A DNA stretch of 64,000 bases from Escherichia coli (GTDB lineage: Bacteria; Pseudomonadota; Gammaproteobacteria; Enterobacterales; Enterobacteriaceae), in NCBI RefSeq assembly GCF_017348835.2, contig NZ_CP072315.1, one strand, 5' to 3'. Positions 32,647 through 64,000 of the stretch are shown piece by piece; positions within the stretch are counted from its first letter, which is position 1; each line of letters begins with the position of its first letter. Position numbers and translations under genes: made by a program. The notes under the pieces are model-generated. The model was not told where the DNA came from. It ran no database searches and saw only the letters and a list, made by a program, of their open reading frames with translations.

Positions 32647-33435
32647 ATGAAAATGCTAAGTGGCATTAACATCCCTTTTTTCAAAAAATCTAAAAAGGAT
32701 GAAAACGGTGATCTTGAACAGTCATACGTAAAGAAAGATGAAAGTGCTAAGGGACGTTTTTTGGACATTAAAAAACGATTTAGCCCACAAGCTGAAGCGT
32801 CAGGTGCTGGAATTACATACAGCGCCCTGATTAATCGTGATACAAAACTTATCCGCATTAATACTGTTTCAATAGCCGTCATTGGGTTATTGGTTGCAAA
32901 GATTCTTTTTTTCACTGACCCAGTGACGATTGTTACCCCTCCAAACATGAATGAAGAGATCACGGTTGTTGGTAACAAAGCATCGGAATCTTATAAAACA
33001 CAATGGGCTCTCTTTTTTAGTACCCTTTTAGGGAATATTAATCCAACTAATATTTCCTTTGTGACGGCCTATGTCCTCGATGCCCTTTCACCTGAACTAC
33101 AGGCTAAAACGAGTGAGTCTTTACAGGAGCAGATAAATATCATGCAGGCTCGTGGTGTTGAGCAGACCTTTAAGCCTAATGATATTTACTTTGATCCAAA
33201 AAATGACATGGTCTATGTCTGGGGTACCAAAACGACTCGACTTGTAAATGTTCCGGACAAAACTGAATCATCGAAATGGACTTATGAATGGGTTCTCGGG
33301 ATGAAAAATGGTCGCCCAAGAATTGCATATGTAAATCAATATTCCGGAACACCGAATATTAAAAAAATTACGATAAACGGCAAAGAGCAACTGGCAACGC
33401 TGGATAATCCGCCACCGTCTACAGGTAACAAGTGA
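32647..33435 (+). CDS. trhE: TraE/TrhE-like T4SS inner-membrane protein
   Basis: GGAG RBS; single N-terminal TM helix then periplasmic domain; position between traL and traK homologs. Confidence 0.6.
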   Translation: MKMLSGINIPFFKKSKKDENGDLEQSYVKKDESAKGRFLDIKKRFSPQAEASGAGITYSALINRDTKLIRINTVSIAVIGLLVAKILFFTDPVTIVTPPNMNEEITVVGNKASESYKTQWALFFSTLLGNINPTNISFVTAYVLDALSPELQAKTSESLQEQINIMQARGVEQTFKPNDIYFDPKNDMVYVWGTKTTRLVNVPDKTESSKWTYEWVLGMKNGRPRIAYVNQYSGTPNIKKITINGKEQLATLDNPPPSTGNK

Positions 33436-34707: not shown

Positions 34708-35169
34708 ATGGGAAAAGTTACTTTGCCTGCTCTGCTTGGGGCCACCGTGATTGGTTTTGTCGTATTTGCTTTAACCAGCTTTTACTACAGGTCAGAATAT
34801 ATACCAAAAAGGAGTGTATTAATCGTTCCGGACGCACCCATTAGTATCGAAGATGGCAGTAACGCTTTTCCCGTTCAGACAGTAATAATGAACGATCCAA
34901 CTCTTATTGATAAATTTGTAGGAGAGGACAATATTAATGAGGAGAATGCTTTTGACTATCACAAAAGTAACGTTTTGGAACCTAATTACAAACATGAAAT
35001 ATCTAGAACGAGCCAGATAGATAAAGCTGAAATGAATCATCCATCTGTTCGTGAAAACTGGGCCAGAGCAGGTGATCCCTATATCGTTCCTCAGATGTCT
35101 GACAGCGAACGAAATCTAAAAATTAAACGATTCCAGAAACCTACAAGTGGAGCTAATCATGGACATTAA
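34708..35169 (+). CDS. membrane-anchored protein (153 aa) within T4SS operon
   Basis: N-terminal TM segment; palindrome site overlaps codons 2-6. Confidence 0.5.
   Translation: MGKVTLPALLGATVIGFVVFALTSFYYRSEYIPKRSVLIVPDAPISIEDGSNAFPVQTVIMNDPTLIDKFVGEDNINEENAFDYHKSNVLEPNYKHEISRTSQIDKAEMNHPSVRENWARAGDPYIVPQMSDSERNLKIKRFQKPTSGANHGH
34713..34724. promoter_or_regulatory. palindrome site AAAAGTTACTTT (dispersed family)
   Basis: Read directly at the 5' end of the ORF at 34708. Confidence 0.35.
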
Positions 35170-36514
35170 AAAGGCCTGGGAAAATAAGACCGTCAGACTT
35201 TCTGTTATTGGCGCTCTGCTGGTAGTGATTGTTTATATTATTAGCCAGTCTATTTTTTCCACACCAGTTAAGAAAGAAAAGAAAACACAGAAAAAAGACA
35301 TGCAGACCAATTTGTTGTTAGATGATTCGCAAATGAACAAATTGAGTAATGAAGAAAGCCAGAAAGTATATAAGGAAATGGTTAAGCAAAACCGACTTGA
35401 TCAAAATGCGGCGAAAGAGGACCGCGAAAAAGCAGAAAAAGCCCAACAGGAAACTAAAGCCCAAGTTGCAAGTTTAACTTCTCAACTTCAGCAACTGTCT
35501 CAGCAAATTAATGATATGCAGACTAATCGAAACGGCAATCGTAACTTGGATGCTGGTAGTTCGCGTAAAACGATTAATGAGCAGGCACCGGCAGCTCCTT
35601 ATCAGCTTAATGCTAATGCGCCGATTAATGGCGTAAACCCTAATTACGCGTCTATCACACCTACGCGTAATAGCCCGATGAGAACAATCACACAAAGTTC
35701 CATTAAGACTAATGGTACCGATGGTGTCATTCAGGTTATGCCCGTGTCTGAAAACAGAATCAAGGAAGGCAGAGAGGTCATTGCAGGAGATAAAGCGCCT
35801 ACTCGGACTGTACGAGGTGATGGTACTGCGCCAGTTGATAGCAAAGCGCGGCATGCTGCCCGAAAAGATGAAATGTTTCTTCCGGCAACATCTATTATCA
35901 CTGGTGTTCTGATTACCGGGCTTGAAGCGCCTACAAGCCTTTCTTCCAAATCAGAACCAATGCCAGTAACAATGCGTATTAAAAAAGATGTCATCATGCC
36001 CAATAATTTCACCATGGATTTGCGTGACTGTAACCTTCTGGGTTCAGCTGTTGGTGATTTGGCGTCACAGCGTGCTTACATACGTGCCACTTCTATCTCT
36101 TGTGTTAATTCAAAAGGGAAAGCTTTTGACGTAAAACTGGAAGCATATGCTGTAAGTGAAAATGACGGAAAAAATGGGATCCGAGGCACGCTTATCAGCC
36201 GAAATGGTAACGCAATTGCAGGAGCTGCATTTGCCGGTGGACTTTCTTCACTTGCCGGTAGCTTAAGCCCCAGTAAGGTATCTTCACTTAACATCGACCC
36301 TAATTCACAGGCTCAGTATCAGTCCCCTAATTTTGGTGCACTTGGGGCATTAGCCGGGGCTGGTGCAGCTCAAGGTGGCCTTAATCGACTCGTCGATTAC
36401 TACACCGCAATTGCAGAACAACAGTGGCCAATCGTAGAAATTAGCCCTGGCCGAGCTATTACATTTGTCGTTCAGACCGGAACTACAATTCCAACGAATC
36501 TGACCAGTCGCTGA
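35159..36514 (+). CDS. trhB: TraB/TrhB-like T4SS protein (VirB10-like)
   Basis: ATG with GGAG RBS (track start is upstream GTG); N-terminal TM, coiled-coil/Pro-rich region and C-terminal VirB10-like domain. Confidence 0.7.
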   Translation: MDIKKAWENKTVRLSVIGALLVVIVYIISQSIFSTPVKKEKKTQKKDMQTNLLLDDSQMNKLSNEESQKVYKEMVKQNRLDQNAAKEDREKAEKAQQETKAQVASLTSQLQQLSQQINDMQTNRNGNRNLDAGSSRKTINEQAPAAPYQLNANAPINGVNPNYASITPTRNSPMRTITQSSIKTNGTDGVIQVMPVSENRIKEGREVIAGDKAPTRTVRGDGTAPVDSKARHAARKDEMFLPATSIITGVLITGLEAPTSLSSKSEPMPVTMRIKKDVIMPNNFTMDLRDCNLLGSAVGDLASQRAYIRATSISCVNSKGKAFDVKLEAYAVSENDGKNGIRGTLISRNGNAIAGAAFAGGLSSLAGSLSPSKVSSLNIDPNSQAQYQSPNFGALGALAGAGAAQGGLNRLVDYYTAIAEQQWPIVEISPGRAITFVVQTGTTIPTNLTSR

Positions 36515-36521
36515 GGTTTAA

Positions 36522-37004
36522 ATGGATAGTTTAGAAAAAAAAGAATCGACTGAATCAGCTGGACCTGAAATCACTAAAAAAATGGTGCGAGAAAGGACAA
36601 CAAAAAAAATTACCTTCGAAATTGATATTGAAAAAATATTGAAGTATTTATTTTTCTTCGCCTTTGCCGTTTTGGTCATTATTTATGGTTATAAAGGCTT
36701 TATGAATGTTTACGATTACTTCAATAAACAATCACAGCCTTCGTACAAGATTGCAGTGCTTGACATGCCTGAATTACGTAAGGAATTTTTCAAGCATCAC
36801 GGAGGCCGTACTGCTGACAATGATAGAACTCAATTCGAAGAATATTTCAGAACATTAATGAAGATCTACCGTGACCGTGGCTATTTAATTATTGATGCAA
36901 CGCTTGCCGTTACTGTACCGGATAGTGTTGAAATCGTCACTTATATGGAACTTGAAGATAGCTCTGAAGCGGTACAATCAAGTTCTTATAATGCAAAGAA
37001 GTAG
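36522..37004 (+). CDS. membrane protein (160 aa) within T4SS operon
   Basis: Central TM segment YLFFFAFAVLVIIYGY; co-oriented. Confidence 0.5.
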   Translation: MDSLEKKESTESAGPEITKKMVRERTTKKITFEIDIEKILKYLFFFAFAVLVIIYGYKGFMNVYDYFNKQSQPSYKIAVLDMPELRKEFFKHHGGRTADNDRTQFEEYFRTLMKIYRDRGYLIIDATLAVTVPDSVEIVTYMELEDSSEAVQSSSYNAKK

Positions 37005-37017
37005 AGGGCACCCAATA

Positions 37018-37875
37018 GTGAAAAAGTTACTTTTCCCTTTAATGGCGGCTTTCGCCATTATGGCGAATACGGTCACTTATGCTTCAGAGCAGGTCCTAAC
37101 TAATAGTGATGCTGCTGCGTTAATGGCAAAGGCAAAGGAAGGCGGCGTTTCACCCAGTCAGATCTCGGGTGCGTTATCAAAAATGAAAGGATATAAACCT
37201 AAGGATGCCATATACATTCCTTCTGGTGGGCTATACCTCTTTCAGGACGAGCGTTCGCAGCTAATGGCAGTAACGACCGATGGCCGATACTCCCTTACTG
37301 GGGGAAGCCTTGTTGATGTAATTAAACGTAAACCTGTTCTGACTGTAGAAGAAATCAGAAATTCCTATTTTATTAGTCTTGATGAGGCCCCCTTCCCTCT
37401 GGAAACTGTAGCGTCCATTCATCTGGGAAATTCAAAGCTTAAGAGACAAGCAGCCATTTTCTTAACACTTGATTGTGACGGTTGCATGGAACTTGTTAAG
37501 AAATTTTATGCAGATCGGGACAAGTATCGGATAGATATTGTTTTAGTTCCCTCACCCGGTGAGCCAAAAGAAGAGCTTAGAAGGCTCTGGTGTAGTAAAG
37601 AAAAAGGAAAAATAAACAACCTCGATATTCTTCGTTGGCTAATGGGAAGCAAATCCGACATTGAAAAAAGATTGCTCTCTCAAAAAGAAGCAGAAGAATG
37701 TCCGGCGGAACCTTTGGTAGCGTCATTGATGCTCGCAGGAATTTATAAATTGCAGGGTGTACCTTCAGTTGTCAGACAGGATGGTTTGGCTGGTAATGGC
37801 ATTCCAAAAGATTTCGACTACTGGTTGAACCAAAGCGTTGAACCTCTCTTAAAAAATCCATTTGAGACAAATTAA
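37018..37875 (+). CDS. periplasmic thioredoxin-fold thiol:disulfide interchange protein (DsbC/TrbB-like)
   Basis: GTG start with signal peptide VKKLLFPLMAAFAIMANTVTYA; CDGC active-site-like motif; the track start at 36892 would overlap the upstream gene by more than 100 nt. Confidence 0.55.
   Translation: MKKLLFPLMAAFAIMANTVTYASEQVLTNSDAAALMAKAKEGGVSPSQISGALSKMKGYKPKDAIYIPSGGLYLFQDERSQLMAVTTDGRYSLTGGSLVDVIKRKPVLTVEEIRNSYFISLDEAPFPLETVASIHLGNSKLKRQAAIFLTLDCDGCMELVKKFYADRDKYRIDIVLVPSPGEPKEELRRLWCSKEKGKINNLDILRWLMGSKSDIEKRLLSQKEAEECPAEPLVASLMLAGIYKLQGVPSVVRQDGLAGNGIPKDFDYWLNQSVEPLLKNPFETN
37022..37034. promoter_or_regulatory. palindrome site AAAAGTTACTTTT (dispersed family)
   Basis: Read directly at the start of the DsbC-like gene. 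Confidence 0.35.
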
Positions 37876-37884
37876 GGCTAGTTT

Positions 37885-38835
37885 ATGAACATCAAAAGAT
37901 TGGTACTCAGTGCTCTGGTTGTAGGTACATCCTCATATCTTACGGGGTGCTCCATCGGGAGTTCCGAATCCGAATGTCCAGGCATTGAAAAGGGCGTTAT
38001 CTGTAAAGGTCCTCGCGAAGTTATGGAGTTAACTAATAATCGAGATGATCTGTCTGCACTTGCGGGGGAAGAGTCGGAATCGGGAAAGGAGAAATCGGCT
38101 GTCAATGACAGCCGTTATCCAACTGAAATTAGCCCTCCAGGGGAAGTCAAATATCCACAGTCTACAACCCTTAAAAATCAGCCTGTGGCTTATTCAAAAA
38201 CCGAAATTAAGCCAGTTGGTCAGTTACCTGTCATGTACGATAAAACTTTAAAAATGGGTGCCCCTACTTCATCCATTGGACCACGGCCTATTTCTGGTGT
38301 ACCGGTTAATTCAAACGTAAGGATGACTAGCAGTTATAGCACTGCCTCTTCAGCTGGTAACCCTTTCGTTCATCCGGCTGCGGAAGTCGTTAAACAAACA
38401 AGCTATCCGGTTTCTGCTGGAAATGCACCACGCTACGTTGCACCTAATTCTGATATCAGCCCTGGCAAGGATATGTACTCTCTTTACAATGGCCAGCCCG
38501 TTAACCCTACTCTCAACACTGGGCAGATCCAGCAATACCGTTCGCAAGGTTATAAACAAGCTGTAGTGGCTCCTGAACCACTTGCTGTTCTGCAACAGGG
38601 GAAAGTAATGAGAATTACTTTTGCACCTTATACCGATGATAACGATGCGCTTAATCTTCCCGGCTACGTTTATGTCAACGTAAAACCGCAAACATGGATT
38701 GCTGGCAAGAATTCGACCTCAAACCCAGCTCGCATAGTTCCTTTAGAAGTACAGGATGCGGCCCGGGAAAATATGCAGCAGCAACAAAAAGCAACTAAAG
38801 CTGTCTCTTCGAACGGCATTGTTAGACAACTGTAA
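37885..38835 (+). CDS. trhV: TraV/TrhV-like outer-membrane lipoprotein
   Basis: Lipobox LTGC after signal peptide; position before the traC homolog. Confidence 0.6.
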   Translation: MNIKRLVLSALVVGTSSYLTGCSIGSSESECPGIEKGVICKGPREVMELTNNRDDLSALAGEESESGKEKSAVNDSRYPTEISPPGEVKYPQSTTLKNQPVAYSKTEIKPVGQLPVMYDKTLKMGAPTSSIGPRPISGVPVNSNVRMTSSYSTASSAGNPFVHPAAEVVKQTSYPVSAGNAPRYVAPNSDISPGKDMYSLYNGQPVNPTLNTGQIQQYRSQGYKQAVVAPEPLAVLQQGKVMRITFAPYTDDNDALNLPGYVYVNVKPQTWIAGKNSTSNPARIVPLEVQDAARENMQQQQKATKAVSSNGIVRQL

Positions 38836-38843
38836 GGTCAAAT

Positions 38844-41525
38844 ATGGAAGCTATCAATAATTACAATAGCGGTTTAAATCGCCATCAATTAGGTGGGTTT
38901 ATCCCTGTTTACGATCAATTAGCAGGGACTCACTATTTTTTGATTGATGGCAACAGATTAGGGTTTATGTTTATCTGTAATCCATCACCTGGAGTTTTTG
39001 ATAATCAGCAAGATGTTCTTGCTGAAATGTTCAAAATGGATTTTCCTACAGATACTGTCTGTCAAATATCTCTGACTGCATTGCCAGACTTGACTTTACA
39101 GCTTAGTGCTTGGTCAGCTGTGCGAGGTGGGCGTATGACTGGGAACGATAAGCTTAAAGCAGATCTGCTTAATGGTTATCAGTTGGACTACTACGACAGA
39201 AGTATGCATAAGCCTTTAAAACCTGATCATGATAACCTTATGTTGAGGGATTTTCAGGTATGGATCTCGCTATCGATTCCTTTACAGTCTGCCCTTCCTA
39301 CCGAGCTGGAACATTCGCGTATCGATTCACTTTACTCTGAACTTGTAAGTAAGTTAATTACGATTGGACTGCATCCGATTAAGGTCGATGCAGAAAACTG
39401 GCTCTATTGTATAGATAAGGTCGTAAACCCCGGAAAGAACTCTCGGTGGGCTGAAGGTTTTATAGACGTTAACACTATGAAAAGGCTTAATGAACAAGTT
39501 AACGTTCCCGGCCGTAAGTATACAGTCACAGAAAATCATTTCTCATCAGTCACACAAAGTGACGACGAATCTGAGCATCGTTACTTCAAACAACTTTCCG
39601 TTGTAAAGTTTCCTGAATACGTCAATTTCGGTTGTATGTATGAGTTAGTAGTTAACTGGATGCATGGACGTAAGACAATTTTCAGCCCATTTATGATCAC
39701 TCAGACTGTTCAGTTTGCCGATCCGCTCAAGTTGTCAAAAGAAAACGTCCGCTACAAAGCAATCACTAATAAACAGGCAAGTATACCTTCAGTTGTCACA
39801 TTCTGCCCTCGCCTGCGGGATATGGATAATGACTACATGGCCGTAACTCGCGAGCTTGAGGATGGCGCAAAGCTTTTAAGAGGGTATCTTACTTTCACTG
39901 TTATGGGTAGTAATGCCAATTCTGTGCAGACAGCAGCTAACGATCTCAAATCCTTTTACCTCGAAAGCCGGGTCAAAGTAGCAGATGATTCCTTTATCGT
40001 TTTCCCGTCATTTATGTCATGTCTGCCAATGTGCAATGACCCAAAGACAATTTTCGACCTTGACCGATCCGAAGTAGTGAGCAACACCGGAGCGGCTCAT
40101 ATGACGCCGATCTTTGGGCCCTGGAAAGGTAATACAGATAGACCAGTACTGAGTTTAGTTTCTCGTGAAGGTCAACTCATGGGACTTGATATTTTCAAGA
40201 CTTCTGCAAGCTATAACATGGTTATTGGTGCAACGTCAGGTGCAGGCAAGTCATTCTGGACAGCATATCTAATCAATAACTATCTTGGAGCTGGACCGCG
40301 ATCTAATAACCTCGTTCATTATCGCTCAACATTTAAGCATTTTTTAGAAAACGAATACCCAGATGATGATCCTGATGGTGCTCAAGTTTTTGTAGTGGAC
40401 GTGGGGCGTTCTTACCAGGGGATTGCGGAACAATATACAAACAGTCAATTTATTGATTTCGGTAAAACCCCTGACTTCACCCTAAATCCCTTTGCCTTCC
40501 TAACTGACATCACTGTTAACGACGATGTATTTAACGAAGCACCTGAATTTACCGGTGAATCAACTTCAAACGATGCAGAAAAAGACAAAGTTGCTCAGAC
40601 CATAATGGTTCTGAATCAGCTAAAAATTATGGCTTCAGAGAAAGGCCTTATCGATGATTATCAACAATCAGTGATGCTTCAGCTTATTGCAGAAGAGTAC
40701 CAGGAATCCAGAAAATCAGGTCGGACCGGTTCAATAACCGGCTTTGCTCTGCGTTGCAAGAAGCATGAAGACAAACGTATAAAGGATATTGGGGAGCAAC
40801 TCGGAGCATGGTGCGAAGGTGGAATTTATGGGCACCGGTTTACCGATACGTTGCCTCCAATCAACTTCGACAGCAGATTTATTGTTTTGGAACTGGAGGA
40901 GCTAAAAGGCACCCCCCACCTTCAGACAGTTGTTTTAATGTCTATCATTCAGGCTGCTCAGCATGCAATGTTCATCAAAAAAGATGGGCGTCGTCGCTTG
41001 TTCATCCTAGATGAAGCTTGGGAGTACATTCGTCCTGATAATTCATCAGGTGCCGGAAATCAATCAAACCAATTCTTCTCTTCCTTCCTCGAAGCGGCAT
41101 GGCGTAGGTTCAGGAAAACAAACTGCGCTGGCATCTGTATCACACAGTCGTTTGAAGATTATTTTACTTCTTCTGTTGGCCGGGCCCTGACTGCTAACTC
41201 GCCTTGGAAGATAATCATGAAACAAGAAAAAGAAAGCATTGAAGCAATGAAGGCTAATAAATATTTTTCTACTTCAGATGCAGAATATGAACGAATGAAA
41301 AATATTCGTACAGTCAAAAAGGTGTTTTCAGAGATGTTAGTCAGGTTCGAAAACTTCCAAGAGATCTGTCGGTTATACGTAGACCGGAAAATGGAGCTTT
41401 GTTTTACTACGGATAGTGCTGACAGGAGTAAATTATGGGAAATTCAAAGCCGCGAGAATTGTAGCTATGGCGAGGCAATAGAAATTCTCTATGCTCAAGA
41501 AGTAGCAGCGGGTTTGGCCGCGTAG
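38844..41525 (+). CDS. trhC: TraC/TrhC-like T4SS ATPase (VirB4 family)
   Basis: 893 aa; Walker A GATSGAGKS; Walker B-like LFILDEAWEY. Confidence 0.8.
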   Translation: MEAINNYNSGLNRHQLGGFIPVYDQLAGTHYFLIDGNRLGFMFICNPSPGVFDNQQDVLAEMFKMDFPTDTVCQISLTALPDLTLQLSAWSAVRGGRMTGNDKLKADLLNGYQLDYYDRSMHKPLKPDHDNLMLRDFQVWISLSIPLQSALPTELEHSRIDSLYSELVSKLITIGLHPIKVDAENWLYCIDKVVNPGKNSRWAEGFIDVNTMKRLNEQVNVPGRKYTVTENHFSSVTQSDDESEHRYFKQLSVVKFPEYVNFGCMYELVVNWMHGRKTIFSPFMITQTVQFADPLKLSKENVRYKAITNKQASIPSVVTFCPRLRDMDNDYMAVTRELEDGAKLLRGYLTFTVMGSNANSVQTAANDLKSFYLESRVKVADDSFIVFPSFMSCLPMCNDPKTIFDLDRSEVVSNTGAAHMTPIFGPWKGNTDRPVLSLVSREGQLMGLDIFKTSASYNMVIGATSGAGKSFWTAYLINNYLGAGPRSNNLVHYRSTFKHFLENEYPDDDPDGAQVFVVDVGRSYQGIAEQYTNSQFIDFGKTPDFTLNPFAFLTDITVNDDVFNEAPEFTGESTSNDAEKDKVAQTIMVLNQLKIMASEKGLIDDYQQSVMLQLIAEEYQESRKSGRTGSITGFALRCKKHEDKRIKDIGEQLGAWCEGGIYGHRFTDTLPPINFDSRFIVLELEELKGTPHLQTVVLMSIIQAAQHAMFIKKDGRRRLFILDEAWEYIRPDNSSGAGNQSNQFFSSFLEAAWRRFRKTNCAGICITQSFEDYFTSSVGRALTANSPWKIIMKQEKESIEAMKANKYFSTSDAEYERMKNIRTVKKVFSEMLVRFENFQEICRLYVDRKMELCFTTDSADRSKLWEIQSRENCSYGEAIEILYAQEVAAGLAA

Positions 41526-41949: not shown

Positions 41950-44900
41950 CTTATTTAACCCCCTTTATCGCCAATCTGTGATTTTCTAATGTTAGCCTAC
42001 AGTTCTAGGGCCCTTGCTCCCATGATGCGAATCCTTCCACCTAATAAAGATTAACGCCTCATTCCTGTATGCCGGTCTTACGACGCCAGTGCACGGACAA
42101 TTTTTGGTCATCACAAGGCCAGGCGGGAGATTTAATCAGGGCGTGGTGTTCCTTAGCAGCAGCTGCGGCACTGTAAGCCGAAGGCGGAATTAACTCCTTT
42201 ATCGCCATCTGGGGACGTCATTAGGGGTACCCCTTTTAACTTGCTCAGGACCATTAAGCTAAAATTCCGGATAGTGATTGACGTAAGATTTAGGCTAAGC
42301 AGGTAAAGTGATCCCCGCTCCCGGGGTGACCACTTTATACAAAAGGCCGATCGGAAGATTGTCCTTAGGGAAATATTCCTTTAACACAGCACGGGCACTT
42401 ACTGCCGCTGCCGGATTTAACCCCCTTAATCGCCAAACTGGGGTACTGTCCTGATGCTGGCCTTCAGTTCTGGGCTGGGTGGCTATCACTTCCTCCCATA
42501 ATGCGAAATGTAACTGCTGATACAGATTAACGTCATATTCCTGCGTGCCGGTCTGCCAACACCAGTGCACGGGCTTTTTTCGGTCATCACATTACCGGGC
42601 AGGAGATTTTATCAGGGCGTGGTGTGACTGAGCAGAAGCTGGGGCACTGTCAGCAGCTTGCAGATTTAACCCCCTTAATCGCCAAACTGGGATTCTGGTC
42701 TGATATTGACCTTCCGTGCTGGGCGGGGTTCGGTTTGCTAACACTTACTCCCATGATACGAAATGTGCCTGCTGATACAGATTAAAATCACATTACTGCA
42801 TACCGGTCTGCCGACACCGGTGCATGGGCGATTTCCGACGATCTCAAGAACATATGGGAGATTATATCAGGGAGAGTAGTATGCCTGAGCAGCATCTGAA
42901 GGCACTGTCAGCCGCTGTCAGATTTAACCCCCTTAATCGCCAAACTGGTGTTCTGTCCTCATGCAGGCCTTCAGTTCTGAGCTGGGTTGCTATCACTTGC
43001 TCCCATAATGCGAAATGTACCTGCTGATACAAATTAACGTCGTATTCCTGTATGCCGGTCTGCCGACACCAGTGCTCGGGCTATTTTCGGTCCTAACAAG
43101 ACCTGGCGAGAGATTTAATCAGGGCGTGGTGTGACTGAGCAGCAGCTGGGGCACTGTTATCCGCTTGCAGATTTAACCCCCTTAATCGCCACACTGGGGT
43201 TCAGTCCTGATAGTGTCCTTCCGTCCTGGGCTCGGTTGCTAACACTTGCTCCCATTGCGCCTGCTGATACAGATTAAAGTCACATTACTGCATACCGATC
43301 TGCCGACTCCGGTGCATGGCTTTTTCCGATAATCACAAGGACGGACGGGTGATTTTATCGTTGCATAGTATGTCTGAGCAGCATCAGAAGGCTCTGTCAG
43401 CCACTGGCAGATTTAACCCCCTTAATCTCCAAACTGGGATCAGTCCTGATAGTGTCCTTCCGTCCTGGGCAGGGTTGCTAACACTTGCTCCCATGATACG
43501 AAATGCGCCAGCTGATACAGATTAACGTCTCATTACTCCATGCCGGTCTGCCGAAACTGGTGCATAGCTTTTTTCGATATTCGCATGAACAGACGCTTGA
43601 TTTTTTCAGGTTGTAATATACCTGAGCAGCATCTGAAGGCACTTTCAGTCGCTGTCAGATTTAACCCCCTTAATCGCCAATCTGGGATTTTCTGATGTTA
43701 ACCTACAGTTCAAGGCCCTTGCTCCCATGATGCGAACCTTGCAACCTGATAAAGATTTAAGCTTCATTCCTGTATGCCGGTCTTACGACTCTAGTGCACG
43801 GGGACTATTTTCGGTCATAATAAGACCTGGCGGGAGATTTAATCAGGCGTGGTGTGACTGAGCAGAAGCTGGGGCACTGTCAGCCGCTGGCAGATTAAAA
43901 CCCTTTATTCGCCATCTCAAGACGTCATTATGGGTAGTCCTTTTAACTTTCTAAGGACCATTAAGCTTAAACTCCGTTTAGAGAATGACGTAAGATTTAG
44001 GCTAAGCAGGTTAAGTGATCCCCGCTCCCGGGTTGAACACTTTATTCATCGTACGAGCGAAAGATTGTCCTTCGGGAAATATTTCTTATACACCGCTCGG
44101 GCACTTACAGCCACTGGCGGATTTAACCCCCTTAATCGCCAAACTGGGGTACTGTCCTGATGCTGGCCTTCAGTTCTGGGCTGGGTGGCTATCACTTGCT
44201 CCCCTAATGCGAAATGTGTCTGTTAATACAGATTAACGTCATTTTCCTGCGTGCCGGTCTGCCGACACCAGTGCACGGCCTTTTTTCGGTCATTACATTA
44301 CCGGGCAGGAGATTTTATCAGGGCGTGGTGTTACTGAGCAGGAGCTGGGGCACTATCAGCAGCTTGCATATTTAACTCCCTTAATCGCCAAACTGGTGTT
44401 CTGTCCTCATGCTGGCCTTCAGTTCTGGGCTGGGTTGCTATCTCTTGCTCCCATAATGCGAAATGTATCTGCTGATACAGATTAACGTCATATTCCTGTA
44501 TGCCGGTCTGCCGACACCAGTGCTTGGGCTATTTTCGGTCATAACAAGACCTGGCGAGAGATTTACTCAGGGCGTGGTGTGACTGAGCAGCAGCTGGGGC
44601 ACTGTCATCCGCTTGCAAATTTAACCCCCTTAATCGCCAAACTTGGGTTTTGTCCTGATGCTGGCCTTCCGTTCTGGGCGGGGTTGCTATCACTTGCTCC
44701 CATCATGCGAAAAGTGCCTGCTGATACAGATTAACGTCATATTCCTTCATGCCGGTCTGCCGACACAAATGCACGGGCTTTTTTCGGTCCTTACAATACC
44801 GGGCAGGAGATTTAATCAGGGCGTGGTGTGACTGAGCAGCAGCTAGGACACTGTCAGCCGCTGGCAGATTTAACCCCCTTAATCGCCACACTGGGGTTGC

Positions 44901-45000
44901 CTCCTGAAGTTGGGTTTCAGTTCTGGGCTAGGTTGCTAACTCTGCTCCCATAATTCGTAGTGGGCCTACTCAAGAGATTAACACCTCATATCTTTAGACT
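41950..45000. repeat. tandem array of about 13 diverged direct repeats of ~235-257 bp (at least three unit subtypes, higher-order duplication)
   Basis: Anchor CAGATTTAACCCCCTTAATCGCCAAACTGGG recurs at about 41955, 42416, 42664, 42921, 43171, 43411, 43660, 44121, 44371, 44620, 44868; every unit contains TCGCCA and ATTTAAC. Confidence 0.8.
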
Positions 45001-54362: not shown

Positions 54363-57300
54363 ATGAGAAAATCAGGTTTAGGTTTAGCCCTGTTGTTTTC
54401 TTTAATTGCTCCGATTAAAGCGGTCTATGCCGAAGCGATTATGATTTCAGGAAAGCTACAGGCTGATTTGCCAGCCGTATCCTTTGACCCGGGGCCGGGC
54501 GACTTTGTTGCATACGTTAATTCTAACACTATCACTGCCTCAGGTGCAGGCACAGCCTGTAATGTAACGGTTGATGATCGAGCGACTTCCTCTGTTGATA
54601 ACCTCGTTTGTTTTTTTGAGTGGTTACCCAATACCTTGGGATTTACTTCTAACGGTTTCACTCTTTCAGGCGTTCCCAACACCACCGGTGATTTAAAACT
54701 ACCTTACAAGATTTCTTACTTCTCTGGTTCTGAACGGAAAAAAGTTGAAATAGTAAAAGGTGAATATTCAATCAAAAGTGTGGCACCGGTAAAACCTACT
54801 ATCACCGGTCTTAAATCATCCCTGAACGGATTAGTCTATGACGGCTTTTCTTTCAAATCGTATTTAAAGGATGAAGCGATCAAAGATATCGCTGTTTCTG
54901 TTGAGCCCCGCAATTATATTCAATACATCTCAATAGGTTCAGGCTCCGCCTGTGAAGTTCCTATTGGCGGAACTTCCTGTACCATTGAAGTTGGAAGCAT
55001 TAAGGCCAGTGATACAGATGAACTTTTGGGTTCACGTGATATCACAATTACAGCAAACTCTAAGAATAATTATTTCGCACCTCCTGAATCCAAAAAGCTT
55101 GTTGTTAACTGGGATTATCGGCCTCCTGTAGTAGACCATACACTTTGGAATTTTACCGATGAGGCTAAAACAATCAAAGTAGGTGGCCAGGACATCTATA
55201 CCGGAGCCAAAACCGTTGCTGTGGCCGTTAAGGTACCCCAGCAAGAAACAGAAGGTGAATGGTGGCTCCCAACAGCTATGTCGCTCACTATGACTCCGGA
55301 TGGCGTGTTTAAACCGACGACTAAAGTGACTTTAGATGATGGCACTGAGATTGATTTCAAACAGTCCTGGGCAACCCCTTTACGTAGAACTTTACAGCCG
55401 GTAAGTGGACCTCAAAAAGTCGGTGATGAGTACCTCTATATCTTCGACTTAACGGATCTTATAAACGGGTCCTACGCAGCGACTTTTACAGTAGAAAATA
55501 CGAGCAAAAACTCTTCTACGTACACTGAGCCTGAAAGCAAACTGATGCTGTCTGATAACCCAACGCTTATGGTTCTCAAAGATGGGCAGGTATTAACTAA
55601 ACGAGCACCCGTATACTTCCTGAACGAGATTATCGTTGCAGCTTTCCAGGGGCAGGCTGGGGTTGCTGACATAAAATCAGTAACAATAGACAACAAAGTA
55701 GTTTCGTTAACACCTACAAATTATAGAGGTATTTACTACCTGCCGGTTGGAGACGATTTAGCAGTTAATTCGGATCACGAGATTACTGTGGTGGCTGAAA
55801 ACCTTTATGGAAAAAACGTTAATTTCAGTACCGTTTTCACTTATCAACCTACTGGATTCACTCTCAAGAATCTGGAAAAAAACGTAACTCTTTACTCGCG
55901 TGTACGTCAGTATACGGACCTGCTTAGTCAAACAGCTGGTGATAAATGCACTCTGTTTACCACAGAGGAAAATGCGAATGCTTACCTCGCCTGGTATGGG
56001 GAAAAATCAGATGTTACAGCATGCTACCCTCAGTGGAACAATGTCCCTGATGGGTTGGAGTTCTATTTTAAAGGACGTACCCCGGGTCTAACTGGATTCT
56101 TTAATAAAACAGGTGAGAATCTGCTCGACTATCAAGTCTATATGATTAACGGGAAGGGCTCTAAAGCGGTATCCGCAAGGAATCGCCGTACTCTGACCAC
56201 ACAATTACCATACAACCCGATCATCTCTTACAAAAAGAATAAAGTCATAGCTGGCATCAATCCGAACACTGCTCTGGCTTATACGACCGGGGGGGAGGCC
56301 GCTCGAATATTAGCGAAGGTGGTACCAGCTGACGTTACGATGATCGTCTCTCAAAACGGCTCTGAGGCTGTCAAAACGTCATTTAAAAATCGTTCCTCAA
56401 ACAACGATGCAACGACCTTTGTACAAAGGGTTAAGGTTGCTGCTGCACCATTGTGGACAAAGAACGTCTTTGACATAGCTGTAGAATACTCAAAGGATCC
56501 AGAATTAAGAACTACAGACACACTCAACGTATATACGGTGCCTGATTTCAATATTCGAGCATCGATGGAAGTGGATGACAGAAAAACAGCCACATCTCTT
56601 GAAGTGCCCTTAAAGGTAACAGTGGGGCGTTATAACAACTCCACACGTAAAAGTGCATTTGACCGTAAAACAATGGGAGAATGGGACGTCACGATATACT
56701 CGCAAAAAAGTGTATACGGCAAAGATCCAGAAACAGGCCGTTATAAAACTACATACGAAAGAACTGCGCTGACTGAAGCATTGCCGGTCAATGATGCGGG
56801 CATTGTCGAAACCAAGATTAAAATTGAAAATATGGATCTGGGTAATATGCGTCTGGTTGGTGTGGCTAAGGTCAGATCGCCATTCTCTGATTTTGAAATG
56901 AAACGTGAGACCAGTGCTGTAGGCATTCGAATCTATAAAGGTGAGGAACTGGAGGGTAACCTGTCGAAAAGCCTTATTATCGGAAGGATCCCACTTAGTA
57001 CTCTGGTAAGCTTCAAATCTGCCAGTACTGCTAACTCTGACGCACTTGCCCCCACCGAATGGCAGCAGTCCTCTGATAATGGTCAAACCTGGAATATGCT
57101 TTCCGACATGACCGGAAAGAGAAGTGTAAGTATCAAAAAGACAGAAGTAGGAAAGTGGCTTTATAGGGCAAAAATGACCAATAAATTCACATCTAAGGTT
57201 TCCTACACAGATGCCTTAACGGTAGTTACCTACAAGCAGCCTAAGCTCAGTATAGATGTGACAGACATTCTTCAGGGCTCAGATGTACCTGTAACCCTGC

Positions 57301-61093: not shown

Positions 61094-62155
61094 ATGATGG
61101 TGAAAAAATTCAAAAAGTTACTTTTAGAGTTCATTGTAGCAGTTATGCTTTCGCTTTCTATACCTGGTATGGCTATGGCAGCAGATGCTGGAGTCCCTGG
61201 GGCTATGTGTCAGTCAGCTGGAGTGTGGCAGGGCTTGATTAAGAATATCTGTTGGAGCTGCATTTTTCCCATGAGGATAATGGGCATAGGGGCTGCTCCA
61301 GAAGGCGCTGCACCTTCACGTCCGGGTTGCTACTGCACAGATCAGAACGGCGTACCGGAAATAGGTTGGCAATTGAGCTTCTTTCAGCCGGTGAAGATTG
61401 TAGAAGTTGTAAAGAGCCCCTGGTGCAGCCCCTTTCTTGAAGGCACGATGCTTCAAAAATCGCAGTTTGATATTGGTAAAAGCAACACTAATCAGCCAAT
61501 GACAGCAACTGAAGCCGGATTTTACGATGTTCATCTTTGGGAGTTCCCAATCATGACAATGCTCAAATTACTGATTATTGGCGAGTGCACTGCTGAACCC
61601 TATATAGATGCCAGCCTGACCTATATAAGCGAAGTGGACCCTATGTGGGAAAGTGATCTGCTTACACTCGTCCTGAATCCCGAGGCAGTAGTTTTTGCAA
61701 ACCCAATTGCCTCAATGGTGTGCGCTGCTGACTGTGTAGCAGTAACAGCAGGAAAGGATAATCTCGCTGCATACTTTTGTGCCGGATGCGATGGCAACCT
61801 TTACCCATTAACCGGCCACATTTACGCAAATGATGACGCTGTAAGGACGAGTTCACTGATTACCCAGCGTCTTCTGACAAAACTACATCGCCAAGGCATG
61901 CTGATGCGAACGATGGGAGCAGACGCAATGTGTGAGAAAACGTGGGAATACTTTACACCACGTTCCCAGTATCGGCTTTCAATGCTTTTCCCTACTCCTG
62001 AGGCGAAGGGACCGGATTGCTGTCATCGTCTTGGTGATTCGGTACACGACTGGTCAACCCTTAAAGGTGGGCGCAAAAAAATAGGCAACGATAATTATGT
62101 CTATATGTTGTGGCGTTACAATGACTGTTGTGTTCGCTACGTTCCAGGCGTTTGA
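61094..62155 (+). CDS. trhU: TraU/TrhU-like pilus assembly protein (Cys-rich, secreted)
   Basis: Start at internal ATG (MMVKKFKK...) 2 nt after the small ORF stop; signal peptide; many conserved cysteines. Confidence 0.65.
   Translation: MMVKKFKKLLLEFIVAVMLSLSIPGMAMAADAGVPGAMCQSAGVWQGLIKNICWSCIFPMRIMGIGAAPEGAAPSRPGCYCTDQNGVPEIGWQLSFFQPVKIVEVVKSPWCSPFLEGTMLQKSQFDIGKSNTNQPMTATEAGFYDVHLWEFPIMTMLKLLIIGECTAEPYIDASLTYISEVDPMWESDLLTLVLNPEAVVFANPIASMVCAADCVAVTAGKDNLAAYFCAGCDGNLYPLTGHIYANDDAVRTSSLITQRLLTKLHRQGMLMRTMGADAMCEKTWEYFTPRSQYRLSMLFPTPEAKGPDCCHRLGDSVHDWSTLKGGRKKIGNDNYVYMLWRYNDCCVRYVPGV
61113..61125. promoter_or_regulatory. palindrome site AAAAGTTACTTTT (dispersed family)
   Basis: Exact 13-bp palindrome at the 5' end of trhU. 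Confidence 0.35.
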
Positions 62156-62173: not shown

Positions 62174-64000
62174 GTGAAACTTAGAAAAACAATCACCTCA
62201 GCGATTATTGCATCAATGGTTGCCAATACTATGAGTTGGGCTTTTTATGTCACACTCATAAACATGGTAATGACACCACGTGTTTACGCTGCTGACGCTA
62301 TATTTGACCAGCTCGAAAATAATTTTAACCTTGCAAATCCTAACGCAAATCGCAATGCAACCACCAGTGCTCAGGACATTGTGGAGAAATACAAGAACGC
62401 GGATTCAGGCGAGAATGTCAGTGGGAAGATCACCGAGAAATACGTGGGTAAAGCCGAATCCGCTAATCTTAATCTCGGGAAGTATGGGGCAGGGAACTCT
62501 AATGAAAGTGTCATGAAAAATGCCGCATCCGATGGAAAGTCTATTGGTAGCGCCGTACAACTGCCGAGTATGTCTGGAGGGACAATCAATTCAAACTACA
62601 CCAAGGAAGGGGCAAAGCTGCTCTCTCGTGATGCTAATGGCAACATTGGTATAAGCAGTAATCCCAATACTACTCCTGGAACCAAAACAAATACGGGAGA
62701 GATTTTCAGCTCAGAGCAAAAGCACAGCGATATAAAGTTCAACGCCGCAGATCGTTATGGGGATGAGGATGGCTTTGTTAACGATATAAAGAATCGGAAA
62801 AGCCAGTTATTTGATGCTCAAAGTTATGATGGCGTTGCCTACCGCACCCTCGTAAATGCTAACAAGGACAACCCGGCATCGTCTGTAAAGCCTAACGATC
62901 CCATGTTTACTGCGGGGAGAAATGAGATAACCAATGCTGTTGCTGGTACTGGAAACTGGCTTCAGAACTGTAATGTTGAGACCTCCAAAAAAACAGTAAC
63001 CACACACTATCCTGATTACAAAGAGTTCTACTGTAACTCGCCTAAGCAAGATAACTTCAGCAGCTGCACGATAACTCGTGACTTCTCTGTTCCTGTATAC
63101 ATTTCAGGCGGAAACGGAGACATGTCGATGTGCGGCGATAATTGTGTGCGTATATGGTTTGGTCGCCGTGATGACAACTACTGGAGTGACGGGGTATTTG
63201 ATAACGAACTGACATTAAAATTCCATCCGGATGCAAAATTGGCCTCAGCAAAGATTGTTAACGCGGAGTGGGATGACCACATGCGGGTAACACTTGATGG
63301 CACGCAGATTTTTGCTCACATAGATGGTGCATATCGAGAAAGTGACTATCCGGCTCCAAAGGGATCTTGGGAGTTAAAAAAATCGTGGAAACTCGACAAA
63401 GTATACGATGTAACTGAAAAGGTCAGAAAATCAGTTTATGAAGAACCTGATCGTGAAGTGACAATGGCATCCAGAGTCTGGGTTGGTGGGGGAGGTGAAG
63501 GGTACTTTGAGGTTGAGCTGACGTTTGAAAATATGAAGCTCGAAGATAAGCACGTCCAGGAACCAGCTGGTTGTTACGATGCTGTACAAACACCAAATAC
63601 ATTCTGCCGTTTCGATCGGTTTAAAGATATGGATGTTGGCACGAAGCGGCTTCCGGAAAGCGTGCTTTCTATGGCAAAGCCGCTGTATGAAGGCGATAAA
63701 GGCTTTCTTACCTGGAAGACTAACCTTGAAGGCTATTTTTGTGATCCATTGGCTAAAGACAAGATTTGCTCTTATGACGCCAGTGGGAAAATTATGAAAG
63801 ACGCTAATGGAAAGGACCTCTGTTACAACTACGAAGAAATTAAGAGTATGCCTGATGCATGTAGTTCTTATAAAAATGATGCAGCATGTGTACTCGATAA
63901 ACAAACATGTGCAGAGGGTTGGTTCGATGAGGGCACTAACAGCTGCTACATGTATGAACAGAAATACACCTGTGACAGAGGTAAGGATGTAGTTCGTGAG
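62174..64000 (+). CDS. trhN: TraN/TrhN-like mating-pair stabilisation protein, 5' part (truncated by window end)
   Basis: GTG start 7 nt after AAGGAG RBS; open frame of 609 codons to the window edge with no stop, so absent from the ORF track; Cys-rich C-terminal part. Confidence 0.6.
   Translation, partial: MKLRKTITSAIIASMVANTMSWAFYVTLINMVMTPRVYAADAIFDQLENNFNLANPNANRNATTSAQDIVEKYKNADSGENVSGKITEKYVGKAESANLNLGKYGAGNSNESVMKNAASDGKSIGSAVQLPSMSGGTINSNYTKEGAKLLSRDANGNIGISSNPNTTPGTKTNTGEIFSSEQKHSDIKFNAADRYGDEDGFVNDIKNRKSQLFDAQSYDGVAYRTLVNANKDNPASSVKPNDPMFTAGRNEITNAVAGTGNWLQNCNVETSKKTVTTHYPDYKEFYCNSPKQDNFSSCTITRDFSVPVYISGGNGDMSMCGDNCVRIWFGRRDDNYWSDGVFDNELTLKFHPDAKLASAKIVNAEWDDHMRVTLDGTQIFAHIDGAYRESDYPAPKGSWELKKSWKLDKVYDVTEKVRKSVYEEPDREVTMASRVWVGGGGEGYFEVELTFENMKLEDKHVQEPAGCYDAVQTPNTFCRFDRFKDMDVGTKRLPESVLSMAKPLYEGDKGFLTWKTNLEGYFCDPLAKDKICSYDASGKIMKDANGKDLCYNYEEIKSMPDACSSYKNDAACVLDKQTCAEGWFDEGTNSCYMYEQKYTCDRGKDVVRE

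What the first reader, a model, noticed from the sequence alone, without database searches (positions are those of the whole stretch)
37018..37875. Plasmid-encoded DsbC/TrbB-like disulfide isomerase inside the T4SS operon
A CDGC thioredoxin-like protein with a signal peptide sits between traB and traV homologs. The window encodes several cysteine-rich periplasmic proteins (TraU-like, TraN-like, Ig-like proteins), which suggests a dedicated folding catalyst.
Basis: partly seen in the sequence, partly recalled or inferred. Interest (0 to 1): 0.3.

Follow-up and report, generated by a model that had tools for sequence, protein, structure and literature searches.

The report
HtdT, IncHI2 plasmid disulfide isomerase
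The gene is real and is htdT, the already named DsbC-type periplasmic disulfide isomerase in the mating-apparatus operon of IncHI2 resistance plasmids, so the finding is correct but ordinary.

Summary
Window 37018-37875 (+) is an intact 285-codon gene with a GTG start and TAA stop. It has a signal peptide, a CDGC motif (Cys153/Cys156), a second conserved cysteine pair (Cys192/Cys228) and a conserved proline (Pro249). The DNA is at least 99% identical in 1116 plasmid records (IncHI2 in every record inspected), where it is annotated "protein-disulfide isomerase HtdT". It lies in the run trhL-trhE-trhK-htdO-trhB-orf160-htdT-trhV-trhC. The closest solved structure is DsbP, the IncA/C plasmid disulfide isomerase (sequence E=1.3e-12). 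DsbP is also the best fold match for the AlphaFold model, followed by DsbC and DsbG. It is not a TrbB/TraF-type protein. A 160-aa ORF lies between trhB and htdT. The roughly 800-aa Ig-like proteins have only 2-3 cysteines, whereas TrhU has 16 and the partial TrhN has 15. A complete IncHI2 plasmid also carries a canonical DsbC, a TrhF and a DsbA-family protein, so redundancy is likely. Two points are new. RefSeq starts the gene at an internal ATG (250 aa), which removes the signal peptide; the GTG/TTG start is conserved across lineages. One IncHI-like lineage and about 20% of distant relatives have lost the CxxC motif but keep everything else, which hints at a redox-independent role. Novelty: already known.

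The parts
37018..37875 (+). htdT coding sequence, 285 codons, GTG start and TAA stop
   Evidence: ORF list and sequence. 100% identical DNA in IncHI2 plasmids annotated htdT. Homologues of 283-285 aa share the same N-terminus.
37004..37008 (+). Shine-Dalgarno-like GAGGG, 9 nt upstream of the GTG start
   Evidence: Read from the sequence. No comparable motif precedes the RefSeq ATG at 37123.
37018..37083 (+). Predicted Sec signal peptide (aa 1-22; inferred cleavage TYA|SE)
   Evidence: Hydrophobic core and the -3/-1 rule. AF2 pLDDT is below 50 for residues 1-3 and 17-27. The frame is open in three lineages while the other frames carry 2-5 stops; dN/dS is 0.2-0.5.
37102..37185 (+). HtdT-specific N-terminal helical extension (aa 29-56), including the conserved DAxAL..A...G motif
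   Evidence: AF2 helices 29-41 and 46-55. A39 and G43 are invariant in alignment A1. The DsbP and DsbC alignments begin only at aa 52-57.
37186..37347 (+). DsbC-type N-terminal (dimerisation-type) beta domain, about aa 57-110
   Evidence: Aligned to DsbP residues 13 onward and DsbC residues 8 onward. AF2 strands at 72-76, 82-86, 91-94, 97-100 and 105-107. The fold match spans 216-220 columns of the roughly 200-residue DsbP chains.
37399..37833 (+). Thioredoxin-fold catalytic domain with helical insert, about aa 128-272
   Evidence: pLDDT 93-98. Matches to DsbP, DsbC, DsbG and ScsC catalytic domains.
37474..37485 (+). Active-site CDGC (Cys153-Asp-Gly-Cys156)
   Evidence: Sequence. Aligned to CAVC of DsbP and CGYC of DsbC. 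Present in 17 of 18 HtdT-family sequences.
37591..37593 (+). Cys192 codon, first half of the predicted structural disulfide
   Evidence: Invariant in A1 and A2. Aligned to the WCAKDK cysteine of DsbC and the YCAKDK cysteine of DsbP.
37699..37701 (+). Cys228 codon, second half of the predicted structural disulfide
   Evidence: Invariant in A1; Cys in 90 of 91 sequences of A2. Aligned to the ETC cysteine of DsbP.
37762..37764 (+). Pro249 codon (G-V-P), predicted cis-proline loop facing the active site
   Evidence: Invariant in A1 and in all 91 sequences of A2. Aligned to GVP of DsbP.
35159..36514 (+). trhB (TraB/VirB10-type), upstream operon neighbour
   Evidence: Pfam TrbI and NCBIfam TraB hits. 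RefSeq annotation.
36522..37004 (+). orf160, conserved hypothetical ORF between trhB and htdT
   Evidence: ORF list. No Pfam or NCBIfam hit. Syntenic in IncHI1B and in the CxxC-less lineage. By the R27 gene numbering it would be R0028 (inferred).
37885..38835 (+). trhV (TraV lipoprotein), downstream neighbour, starting 9 nt after htdT
   Evidence: Pfam TraV and TIGR02747 hits; RefSeq annotation.
38844..41525 (+). trhC (TraC/VirB4 ATPase), last gene of the run
   Evidence: Pfam TraC_F_IV and P-loop_TraG hits.
61100..62152 (+). trhU, cysteine-rich (16 Cys) and a candidate substrate
   Evidence: Pfam TraU E=3.5e-82; cysteine count.
62216..64000 (+). trhN, cut by the window end; 15 Cys in 595 aa; a candidate substrate
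   Evidence: RefSeq annotates TrhN at the syntenic position. Cysteine count. No Pfam hit on this N-terminal part.

Best explanation
This is htdT of an IncHI2 conjugative plasmid. It encodes a secreted, DsbC/DsbP-type thiol-disulfide oxidoreductase that is co-transcribed with the mating-pair-formation genes trhL to trhC.

Shown here: the gene is intact. It has a signal-peptide-like N-terminus and a DsbC-type N-terminal domain joined to a thioredoxin-fold domain. That domain carries CDGC, a second conserved cysteine pair and the conserved cis-proline position. The gene sits in a tightly packed T4SS gene run.

Inferred from the DsbC/DsbP family and from work on the R27 orthologue: after export the protein dimerises through its N-terminal domain, and host DsbD keeps it reduced. 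Cys153 attacks wrongly paired disulfides in multi-cysteine T4SS components, most plausibly TrhU and TrhN and perhaps TrhV, TrhK, TrhB and RSP. The mixed disulfide is then resolved, either by the substrate or by Cys156, until the native pairing is reached. This role probably overlaps with host DsbC and with the plasmid's own canonical DsbC.
For: Identity. The DNA is at least 99% identical in 1116 plasmid records annotated htdT / protein-disulfide isomerase HtdT. It is 80% identical over aa 19-285 to the IncHI1 protein WP_010892304.1.

Family. phmmer against PDB gives DsbP 4ML1 at E=1.3e-12 over aa 57-272, with CDGC, Cys192, Cys228 and Pro249 aligned to DsbP and DsbC. The profile from alignment A2 hits DsbP at 2.4e-83, DsbC at 1e-24 and DsbG at 3e-5. 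The AF2 model has pLDDT 86.7. Its best PDB fold matches are DsbP chains (E 4e-12 to 2e-10), then DsbC, DsbG and ScsC.

Operon. Gaps to neighbouring genes are 7-13 nt, and the promoter-like sites found are fewer than the shuffles give. In R27, htdT (R0027) is listed in the AC operon and is induced 3-fold at 25 C (PMC7366339).

Substrates. TrhU has 16 Cys and the partial TrhN has 15.

Literature. Plasmid thioredoxin-like proteins contribute to conjugation in F, R27 and SXT (PMC10838148). Deleting the DsbP orthologue s054 abolished SXT transfer (PMC2791158). From my own knowledge of the abstract of Elton et al. 2005 (J Bacteriol 187:8267; the paper could not be opened here): overproduced HtdT(R27) reversed the DTT hypersensitivity of mating in a dsbA mutant.
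Against: No activity, dimerisation or substrate was tested here. The protein itself hits no Pfam or NCBIfam thioredoxin or DsbC model, even at E up to 10 for Pfam; family assignment rests on the PDB sequence match and the fold. One whole IncHI-like lineage has GNDT in place of CDGC yet keeps the gene intact. In addition, 18 of 91 aligned relatives lack CxxC. Redox chemistry therefore cannot be the family's only selected function. Redundancy is likely: a complete IncHI2 plasmid also encodes a canonical DsbC (CGYC), TrhF (CQFC) and a DsbA-family protein (CIYC). The Rts1 homologue of s054 is dispensable for conjugation.
Confidence: 0.8

Rival explanations
1. HtdT acts mainly as a redox-independent chaperone or assembly factor of the T4SS, comparable to the CxxC-less TraF of the F plasmid. 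On this view the CxxC motif is an accessory feature in this plasmid.
For: All 13 variants of an IncHI-like lineage have LDGNDT in place of LDCDGC. They keep a fully syntenic operon, the structural cysteine pair and the cis-proline. The dN between that lineage and the window is 0.213 for htdT. That equals trhE (0.216) and trhK (0.208) and is far below htdO (0.634) and orf160 (0.580). In A2, 18 of 91 relatives lack CxxC, 90 of 91 keep both structural cysteines and 91 of 91 keep the proline. All three CxxC-less relatives checked lie beside or near traV.
Against: CxxC is kept in 17 of 18 HtdT-family sequences, including all IncHI1, IncHI2 and Klebsiella-type members. From memory of Elton et al. 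2005, the motif was required for the DTT-rescue activity in that study. The date of the CxxC loss is unknown, so the dN comparison may mostly reflect time before the loss.
Confidence: 0.12
2. HtdT is a disulfide oxidase or a reductase (DsbA-like or DsbG-like) rather than an isomerase. It would either introduce disulfides into T4SS proteins or protect single cysteines.
For: The fold matches include DsbG and ScsC as well as DsbC. The acidic CDGC/CEGC/CADC dipeptides differ from the CGYC of DsbC. By general thioredoxin-family chemistry this should shift the redox potential (inference).
Against: The closest relative with solved structures, DsbP, is deposited as a disulfide isomerase. The plasmid already carries a DsbA-family protein that could act as oxidase. 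The most cysteine-rich candidate substrates need isomerisation rather than simple oxidation (inference).
Confidence: 0.05
3. The gene is a dispensable, redundant passenger that contributes nothing measurable to transfer in ordinary hosts.
For: According to PMC10838148, the R27 dsbC and F trbB deletions show phenotypes only in dsbC-null hosts, and Rts1 orf212 is dispensable. The same plasmid type carries three other thioredoxin-fold genes.
Against: The gene is intact and syntenic across lineages down to 45% identity, with many invariant residues. tblastn finds matches in 2890 plasmid records, mostly predicted conjugative. Its dN equals that of essential Mpf genes.
Confidence: 0.03

Closest known systems
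HtdT of IncHI1 plasmid R27 (R0027; WP_010892304.1)
   Same: It is the orthologue. Identity is 80% over aa 19-285, and CDGC, the Cys pair and the proline are the same. The position trhB-orf-htdT-trhV-trhC is the same. htdT is listed as a transfer gene of both IncHI1 and IncHI2 (PMC10682676).
   Different: The signal-peptide region has diverged (dN 0.5) and the start codon is TTG rather than GTG. The window carries the IncHI2 allele.
DsbP of IncA/C plasmids and s054 of SXT/R391 ICEs (PDB 4ML1, 4ML6, 4MLY)
   Same: It is the closest solved structure by sequence (E=1.3e-12) and by fold. It has the same two-domain layout, the CxxC, the structural Cys pair and the GVP loop. It is also encoded in an H-group MPF-F transfer cluster, directly upstream of traC.
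   Different: Identity is only 23-25%. The active site is CAVC rather than CDGC. HtdT has an extra N-terminal segment of about 30 residues containing two predicted helices. The gene order differs: traV-traA-hotspot-s054-traC in SXT, against trhB-orf-htdT-trhV-trhC here.
Chromosomal DsbC (E. coli, Salmonella) and the canonical DsbC of IncHI plasmids (R27 R0135; 249 aa, CGYC)
   Same: Same architecture and the same conserved cysteines and proline. These are the periplasmic disulfide isomerase paradigm.
   Different: The relationship is very distant: phmmer E=0.16 to E. coli DsbC, and 24% identity (E=5e-5) to the plasmid's own DsbC. The plasmid DsbC passes Pfam DsbC_N and Thioredoxin_2, but HtdT passes neither.
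TrbB and TraF of the F plasmid; TrhF of IncHI plasmids (Pfam TraF PF13728)
   Same: They are periplasmic thioredoxin-fold proteins encoded in F-type T4SS gene clusters. TraF(F) shows that a CxxC-less member can still be required for conjugation (from my own knowledge of Elton et al. 2005).
   Different: They belong to a different family. HtdT does not hit the TraF/TrbB models, whereas the IncHI2 TrhF hits Pfam TraF at 2.6e-51. TrbB is reported not to use its N-terminal region for dimerisation (PMC7555446), while HtdT has a DsbC-type N-terminal domain.

Membership tests
DsbC/DsbG/DsbP-type periplasmic disulfide isomerases | Export signal (periplasmic location) | tested here: met
   The GTG-started form has a KK n-region, a hydrophobic core and TYA|SE. 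The N-terminus is conserved in homologues down to 45% identity. No dedicated signal-peptide predictor was available.
DsbC/DsbG/DsbP-type periplasmic disulfide isomerases | N-terminal dimerisation-type domain joined by a linker to the catalytic domain | tested here: met
   Aligned to DsbP from residue 13 and DsbC from residue 8. AF2 gives five beta strands at aa 72-107. The fold match covers 216-220 columns of full-length DsbP. Caveat: Pfam DsbC_N is not hit by this protein.
DsbC/DsbG/DsbP-type periplasmic disulfide isomerases | Thioredoxin fold with a CxxC active site | tested here: met
   CDGC at aa 153-156 aligns with CAVC of DsbP and CGYC of DsbC. pLDDT is 93-98 over the domain. Fold matches.
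DsbC/DsbG/DsbP-type periplasmic disulfide isomerases | Conserved cis-proline loop opposite the active site | tested here: met
   Pro249 (GVP) is invariant in 91 of 91 sequences and aligns with GVP of DsbP. The cis conformation itself was not checked.
DsbC/DsbG/DsbP-type periplasmic disulfide isomerases | Second, structural disulfide in the helical insert | tested here: met
   Cys192 is invariant and Cys228 is present in 90 of 91 sequences. They align to the corresponding DsbP and DsbC cysteines. Bond formation was not tested.
DsbC/DsbG/DsbP-type periplasmic disulfide isomerases | Homodimer; kept reduced by DsbD; isomerase activity | not testable with these tools
   No multimer prediction or biochemistry was available. 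There is indirect literature on the R27 orthologue and on DsbP only (PDB entry titles).
DsbC/DsbG/DsbP-type periplasmic disulfide isomerases | Match to the curated family HMMs (Pfam DsbC_N PF10411, Thioredoxin_2 PF13098) | tested here: not met
   No hit even at E up to 10. Relatives P0041 and the IncHI2 DsbC pass both models. This reflects divergence and does not contradict the fold evidence.
HtdT (IncHI transfer determinant T) | Orthology to R27 HtdT and the position trhB-orf-htdT-trhV-trhC | tested here: met
   80% identity to the IncHI1 HtdT, with identical gene order. 100% DNA identity to IncHI2 records annotated htdT.
TrbB/TraF thioredoxin-like proteins of F-type T4SS | Match to the TraF/TrbB models (Pfam PF13728; NCBIfam TrbB/TraF models) | tested here: not met
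   No hit in Pfam at E up to 10 or in NCBIfam at E up to 0.01. As a positive control, the IncHI2 TrhF hits Pfam TraF at 2.6e-51.

The most novel reading that the evidence does not exclude
The conserved, selected role of the HtdT/DsbP clade in H-group F-type T4SSs may not be disulfide chemistry. It may instead be a redox-independent chaperone or scaffold function near TraV/TraC, with the CxxC motif gained or lost freely. The evidence is an entire IncHI-like lineage with GNDT in place of CDGC, and about 20% of distant relatives that lack CxxC. All of these keep the signal peptide, the structural disulfide cysteines and the cis-proline. Those whose context was checked also keep a position beside or near traV. 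In one case the CxxC-less gene sits in tandem with an active CPYC paralogue. Separately, the RefSeq HtdT models seen in the IncHI records inspected start at an internal ATG and so lack the signal peptide; the same gene name is attached to 1116 near-identical records.
Probability: 0.2. Interest if true: 0.35.

Novelty: already known. Interest (0 to 1): 0.1.

Why it matters
IncHI2 plasmids are major carriers of mcr, blaCTX-M, tet(X4) and metal resistance genes. Their mating apparatus contains multi-cysteine periplasmic proteins whose folding could limit transfer. HtdT is one of four plasmid-encoded thioredoxin-fold proteins, so on its own it is a weak anti-conjugation target. Its function has already been proposed and partly tested for the R27 orthologue. 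Two small practical gains come from this check. The first is a corrected gene start, which anyone expressing or deleting the gene will need. The second is the observation that natural CxxC-less alleles exist, which provides a ready-made test of whether redox chemistry is the essential function.

Tried and rejected
1. The longest mechanical ORF (TTG 36892, 327 aa) was rejected. It overlaps orf160 by 113 nt, and no homologue shares that N-terminus.

2. The RefSeq start (ATG 37123, 250 aa) was rejected as the true start. It lacks a signal peptide and an SD motif, and it cuts a conserved helix. The 35 upstream codons are open and under purifying selection in three lineages.

3. Pfam and NCBIfam scans of the protein gave nothing.

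4. TrbB/TraF membership was rejected.

5. Elton 2005, Lawley 2003, Hemmis & Schildbach 2013 and Premkumar 2014 could not be opened. Statements about them rest on citing papers or on my memory and are marked as such.

6. A pairwise dN/dS test of relaxed selection in the CxxC-less lineage failed because dS is saturated. Only dN could be compared.

7. The IS5-family insertion seen in two plasmids lies in orf160, not in htdT, so it is not a natural htdT knockout.

8. tblastn with HtdT found almost no second place per plasmid (2934 places in 2890 records). The plasmid's other thioredoxin-fold genes were found only through annotation.

Full report
**Observation**

The ORF runs from GTG 37018 to TAA 37873-37875 on the + strand and encodes 285 residues. 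The N-terminus, (M)KKLLFPLMAAFAIMANTVTYA|SEQ, has the three regions of a Sec signal peptide: two lysines, a hydrophobic core with a Kyte-Doolittle mean of up to 2.47, and T-Y-A at positions -3 to -1. A GAGGG motif lies 9 nt upstream of the GTG.

The protein has four cysteines: Cys153 and Cys156 in CDGC (37474-37485), Cys192 and Cys228.

**What it is**

The 1.6-kb stretch around the gene is at least 99% identical in 1116 plasmid records from Escherichia, Salmonella, Enterobacter, Klebsiella and others. The gene is annotated there as "htdT: protein-disulfide isomerase HtdT", flanked by trhB, a hypothetical protein and trhV. The records inspected are typed IncHI2A, MOBH, MPF_F.

In the window the order is trhL, trhE (32647-33435), trhK, htdO (34708-35169), trhB (to 36514), orf160 (36522-37004), htdT, trhV (37885-38835), trhC (38844-41525). 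Pfam and NCBIfam matches support TraE, TraK_C, HtdO, TrbI/TraB, TraV and TraC. Gaps around htdT are 7-13 nt. The promoter-like sites found in the run are fewer than the shuffles give (19 against a mean of 25.6). The gene is therefore most likely co-transcribed with the Mpf genes.

In R27, htdT (R0027) is listed in the AC operon and is induced 3-fold at 25 C (PMC7366339).

**Family assignment**

The protein itself hits no Pfam or NCBIfam model, even at a Pfam E-value limit of 10. Other evidence places it clearly:

- phmmer against PDB sequences finds DsbP, the IncA/C plasmid disulfide isomerase (4ML1), at E=1.3e-12 over residues 57-272.
- In that alignment CDGC lies opposite CAVC, Cys192 opposite the YCAKDK cysteine, Cys228 opposite ETC, and G-V-P249 opposite GVP. 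E. coli DsbC aligns weakly (E=0.16) with the same register.
- An exhaustive search of 1.84 billion cluster representatives gave 182 relatives at E up to 1e-3.
- A 91-sequence alignment (A2) used as a profile hits DsbP at 2.4e-83, DsbC at 1e-24 and DsbG at 3e-5.
- AlphaFold2 on A2 gave mean pLDDT 86.7, and 93-98 over the catalytic domain. The model has a low-confidence N-terminus, two helices (29-41, 46-55), a five-stranded beta domain (72-107) and a thioredoxin-type domain with a helical insert.
- Foldseek against the PDB ranks DsbP chains first (E 4e-12 to 2e-10, 216-220 aligned columns), followed by DsbC, DsbG and ScsC.
- The high global rmsd (about 10 Å) probably reflects a different relative orientation of the two domains in a monomer model; this is inference.

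HtdT is therefore a divergent DsbC/DsbP-type protein. It is not TrbB/TraF-type. It misses the TraF/TrbB models that the IncHI2 TrhF hits at 2.6e-51.

**Conservation**

I aligned 18 HtdT-family sequences, ranging from 99% to 43% identity. The N-terminal signal-like segment, a DAxAL..A...G motif (aa 31-43), Cys192, Cys228 and Pro249 are conserved throughout.

The active site is CDGC, CEGC, CSGC, CADC or CTDC, so it is nearly always acidic. In the wider clade, 25 of 73 CxxC-bearing sequences also have D or E in the dipeptide. By general thioredoxin-family chemistry this should favour a reducing or isomerising potential rather than an oxidising one. That is inference and was not measured.

**Gene start**

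RefSeq models in the IncHI1 and IncHI2 records inspected start at ATG 37123 (Met36, 250 aa). That form has no signal peptide and no SD motif, and it begins inside the conserved helix.

The long form starts with GTG in the window and in the CxxC-less lineage, and with TTG in an IncHI1B plasmid. The 35 extra codons are open in all three, while the other two frames contain 2-5 stops. Their dN/dS is 0.2-0.5. In L004-L007 and in the IncHI1B plasmid, the long form starts at or immediately after the last base of the preceding ORF.

A periplasmic isomerase must be exported, so the 285-aa form is almost certainly the real one.

- TrhU (61100-62152; Pfam TraU 3.5e-82) has 16 cysteines.
- The TrhN fragment (62216-64000) has 15 in 595 residues.
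- The three roughly 800-aa Ig-like proteins have only 2-3 cysteines.
- RSP (1434 aa) has 8, arranged as four close pairs.
- TrhV, TrhK and TrhB have about 2 each outside their signal or lipobox cysteine.

So the claim of cysteine-rich proteins holds for TrhU and TrhN but not for the Ig-like proteins.

**Redundancy**

A complete IncHI2 plasmid (NZ_CP022165.1) carries three more thioredoxin-fold genes outside the window region:

- a canonical DsbC-like gene (249 aa, CGYC; Pfam DsbC_N and Thioredoxin_2) next to a lytic transglycosylase;
- TrhF (348 aa, CQFC; Pfam TraF) upstream of trhH;
- a DsbA-family gene (269 aa, CIYC).

HtdT and that DsbC are only 24% identical (E=5e-5).

The literature points the same way. 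PMC10838148 reports that deletions of F trbB and R27 dsbC lower transfer only in dsbC-null hosts. It also reports that Rts1 Orf212, the homologue of SXT s054, is dispensable, whereas Rts1 orf206 is needed. Deleting s054 abolished SXT transfer, but this could not be complemented (PMC2791158).

From my own knowledge of the abstract of Elton et al. 2005 (J Bacteriol 187:8267): overproduced HtdT(R27) reversed the DTT hypersensitivity of mating in a dsbA mutant. The same abstract reports that the C-X-X-C motif was necessary for this activity. The paper could not be opened here.

**Mechanism**

My best-supported account (confidence 0.8) is as follows.

1. HtdT is exported by the Sec pathway.
2. It dimerises through its N-terminal domain.
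3. Host DsbD keeps it reduced.
4. It shuffles non-native disulfides in TrhU, TrhN and possibly other Mpf components during assembly of the H-pilus apparatus.
5. This role overlaps with host DsbC and the plasmid DsbC.

The architecture and motifs are shown here. Dimerisation, DsbD dependence, isomerase activity and substrates are inferred.

**An unexpected side result**

One IncHI-like lineage consists of 13 protein variants, from Buttiauxella gaviniae, E. coli and at least 24 metagenomic contigs. It has LDGNDT where all others have LDCDGC. It keeps a fully syntenic operon, the long GTG start, the structural cysteine pair and the proline.

Between that lineage and the window, htdT has dN 0.213. 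This matches trhE (0.216) and trhK (0.208) and is far below htdO (0.634) and orf160 (0.580). dS is saturated for htdT, so only dN could be compared.

Among the 91 aligned relatives, 18 lack CxxC, 90 keep both structural cysteines and all keep the proline. All three CxxC-less relatives whose context I fetched lie close to traV:

- one lies between traB and traV-traC (L010);
- one lies two genes upstream of traV (L011);
- one lies directly upstream of traV-traC, in tandem with an active CPYC DsbC-like paralogue (L014).

This recalls the F-plasmid pairing of TrbB with the CxxC-less TraF. It leaves open a redox-independent role for the clade. I rate that reading at about 0.2 probability.

**Verdict**

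The feature is an already named and partly characterised gene, identical to that of more than a thousand sequenced plasmids. Novelty: already known. Interest: 0.1.

Noticed in passing
L004 6001-6855 (also L005, L006, L007); protein cluster P0018: An IncHI-like plasmid lineage (Buttiauxella gaviniae, E. coli, many metagenome contigs) has an htdT orthologue with GNDT in place of the CDGC active site in all 13 variants. The operon is fully syntenic and all other conserved residues are kept.
   Followed up: partly
L010 7001-7741; L011 650-1423; L014 12-755 and 755-1549: About 20% (18 of 91) of distant HtdT/DsbP relatives lack CxxC but keep the signal peptide, the structural Cys pair and the cis-proline. 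All three checked lie beside or near traV. In L014 the CxxC-less gene directly follows an active CPYC DsbC-like gene.
   Followed up: partly
window 37018-37122, compared with the RefSeq start at 37123: The RefSeq HtdT models seen (WP_183079335.1 in IncHI2, WP_010892304.1 in IncHI1) start at an internal ATG and omit the 35-codon signal-peptide region. That region starts with GTG (IncHI2) or TTG (IncHI1B).
   Followed up: yes
window 36522-37004 (+): A conserved but fast-evolving 160-aa ORF lies between trhB and htdT. It has no Pfam or NCBIfam match, no cysteines and a hydrophobic stretch (YLFFFAFAVLVIIYGY). It is syntenic in all the IncHI lineages examined. In plasmids NZ_CP119735.1 and NZ_CP119741.1 the same stretch carries an IS5-family transposase; in NZ_CP119735.1, the one inspected, it interrupts this ORF.
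   Followed up: partly
window 42404-44982: A tandem array of about 10.5 copies of a 249-bp unit (71% matches) lies in the 3.8-kb non-coding gap between trhC and the parA/parB genes. It produces many spurious short ORFs on both strands. It may be partition or iteron-like repeats.
   Followed up: no
window 58945-59454 (+): A 170-aa protein that RefSeq names 'TrhF' is a Peptidase_S26 family member (Pfam 9e-21). This corresponds to trhP in the R27 nomenclature. The thioredoxin-like TrhF (Pfam TraF) is a different 348-aa gene in the Tra1 region, outside the window.
   Followed up: partly
L016 33204-34010, 35664-36410, 44694-45737 (NZ_CP022165.1, outside the window): A complete IncHI2 plasmid encodes three further periplasmic thioredoxin-fold proteins: a DsbA-family protein (CIYC), a canonical DsbC (CGYC) and TrhF (CQFC). 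With HtdT that makes four on one plasmid.
   Followed up: partly
proteins P0039, P0043, P0064 (627-727 aa): These distant relatives each have one DsbC_N-like N-terminus followed by three tandem thioredoxin-like domains (three matched stretches). This multi-domain DsbC-type architecture is unusual.
   Followed up: no
window 3277-5691 (-), 9285-11702 (+), 17590-20043 (-), 54363-58664 (+): There are three paralogous roughly 800-aa proteins (DUF4165 + Big_3_2 + Big_3_3) and the 1434-aa RSP. They probably belong to the Ig-like protein class reported as required for IncHI conjugation (PMC6764697, title only; the paper was not read). All are cysteine-poor.
   Followed up: no
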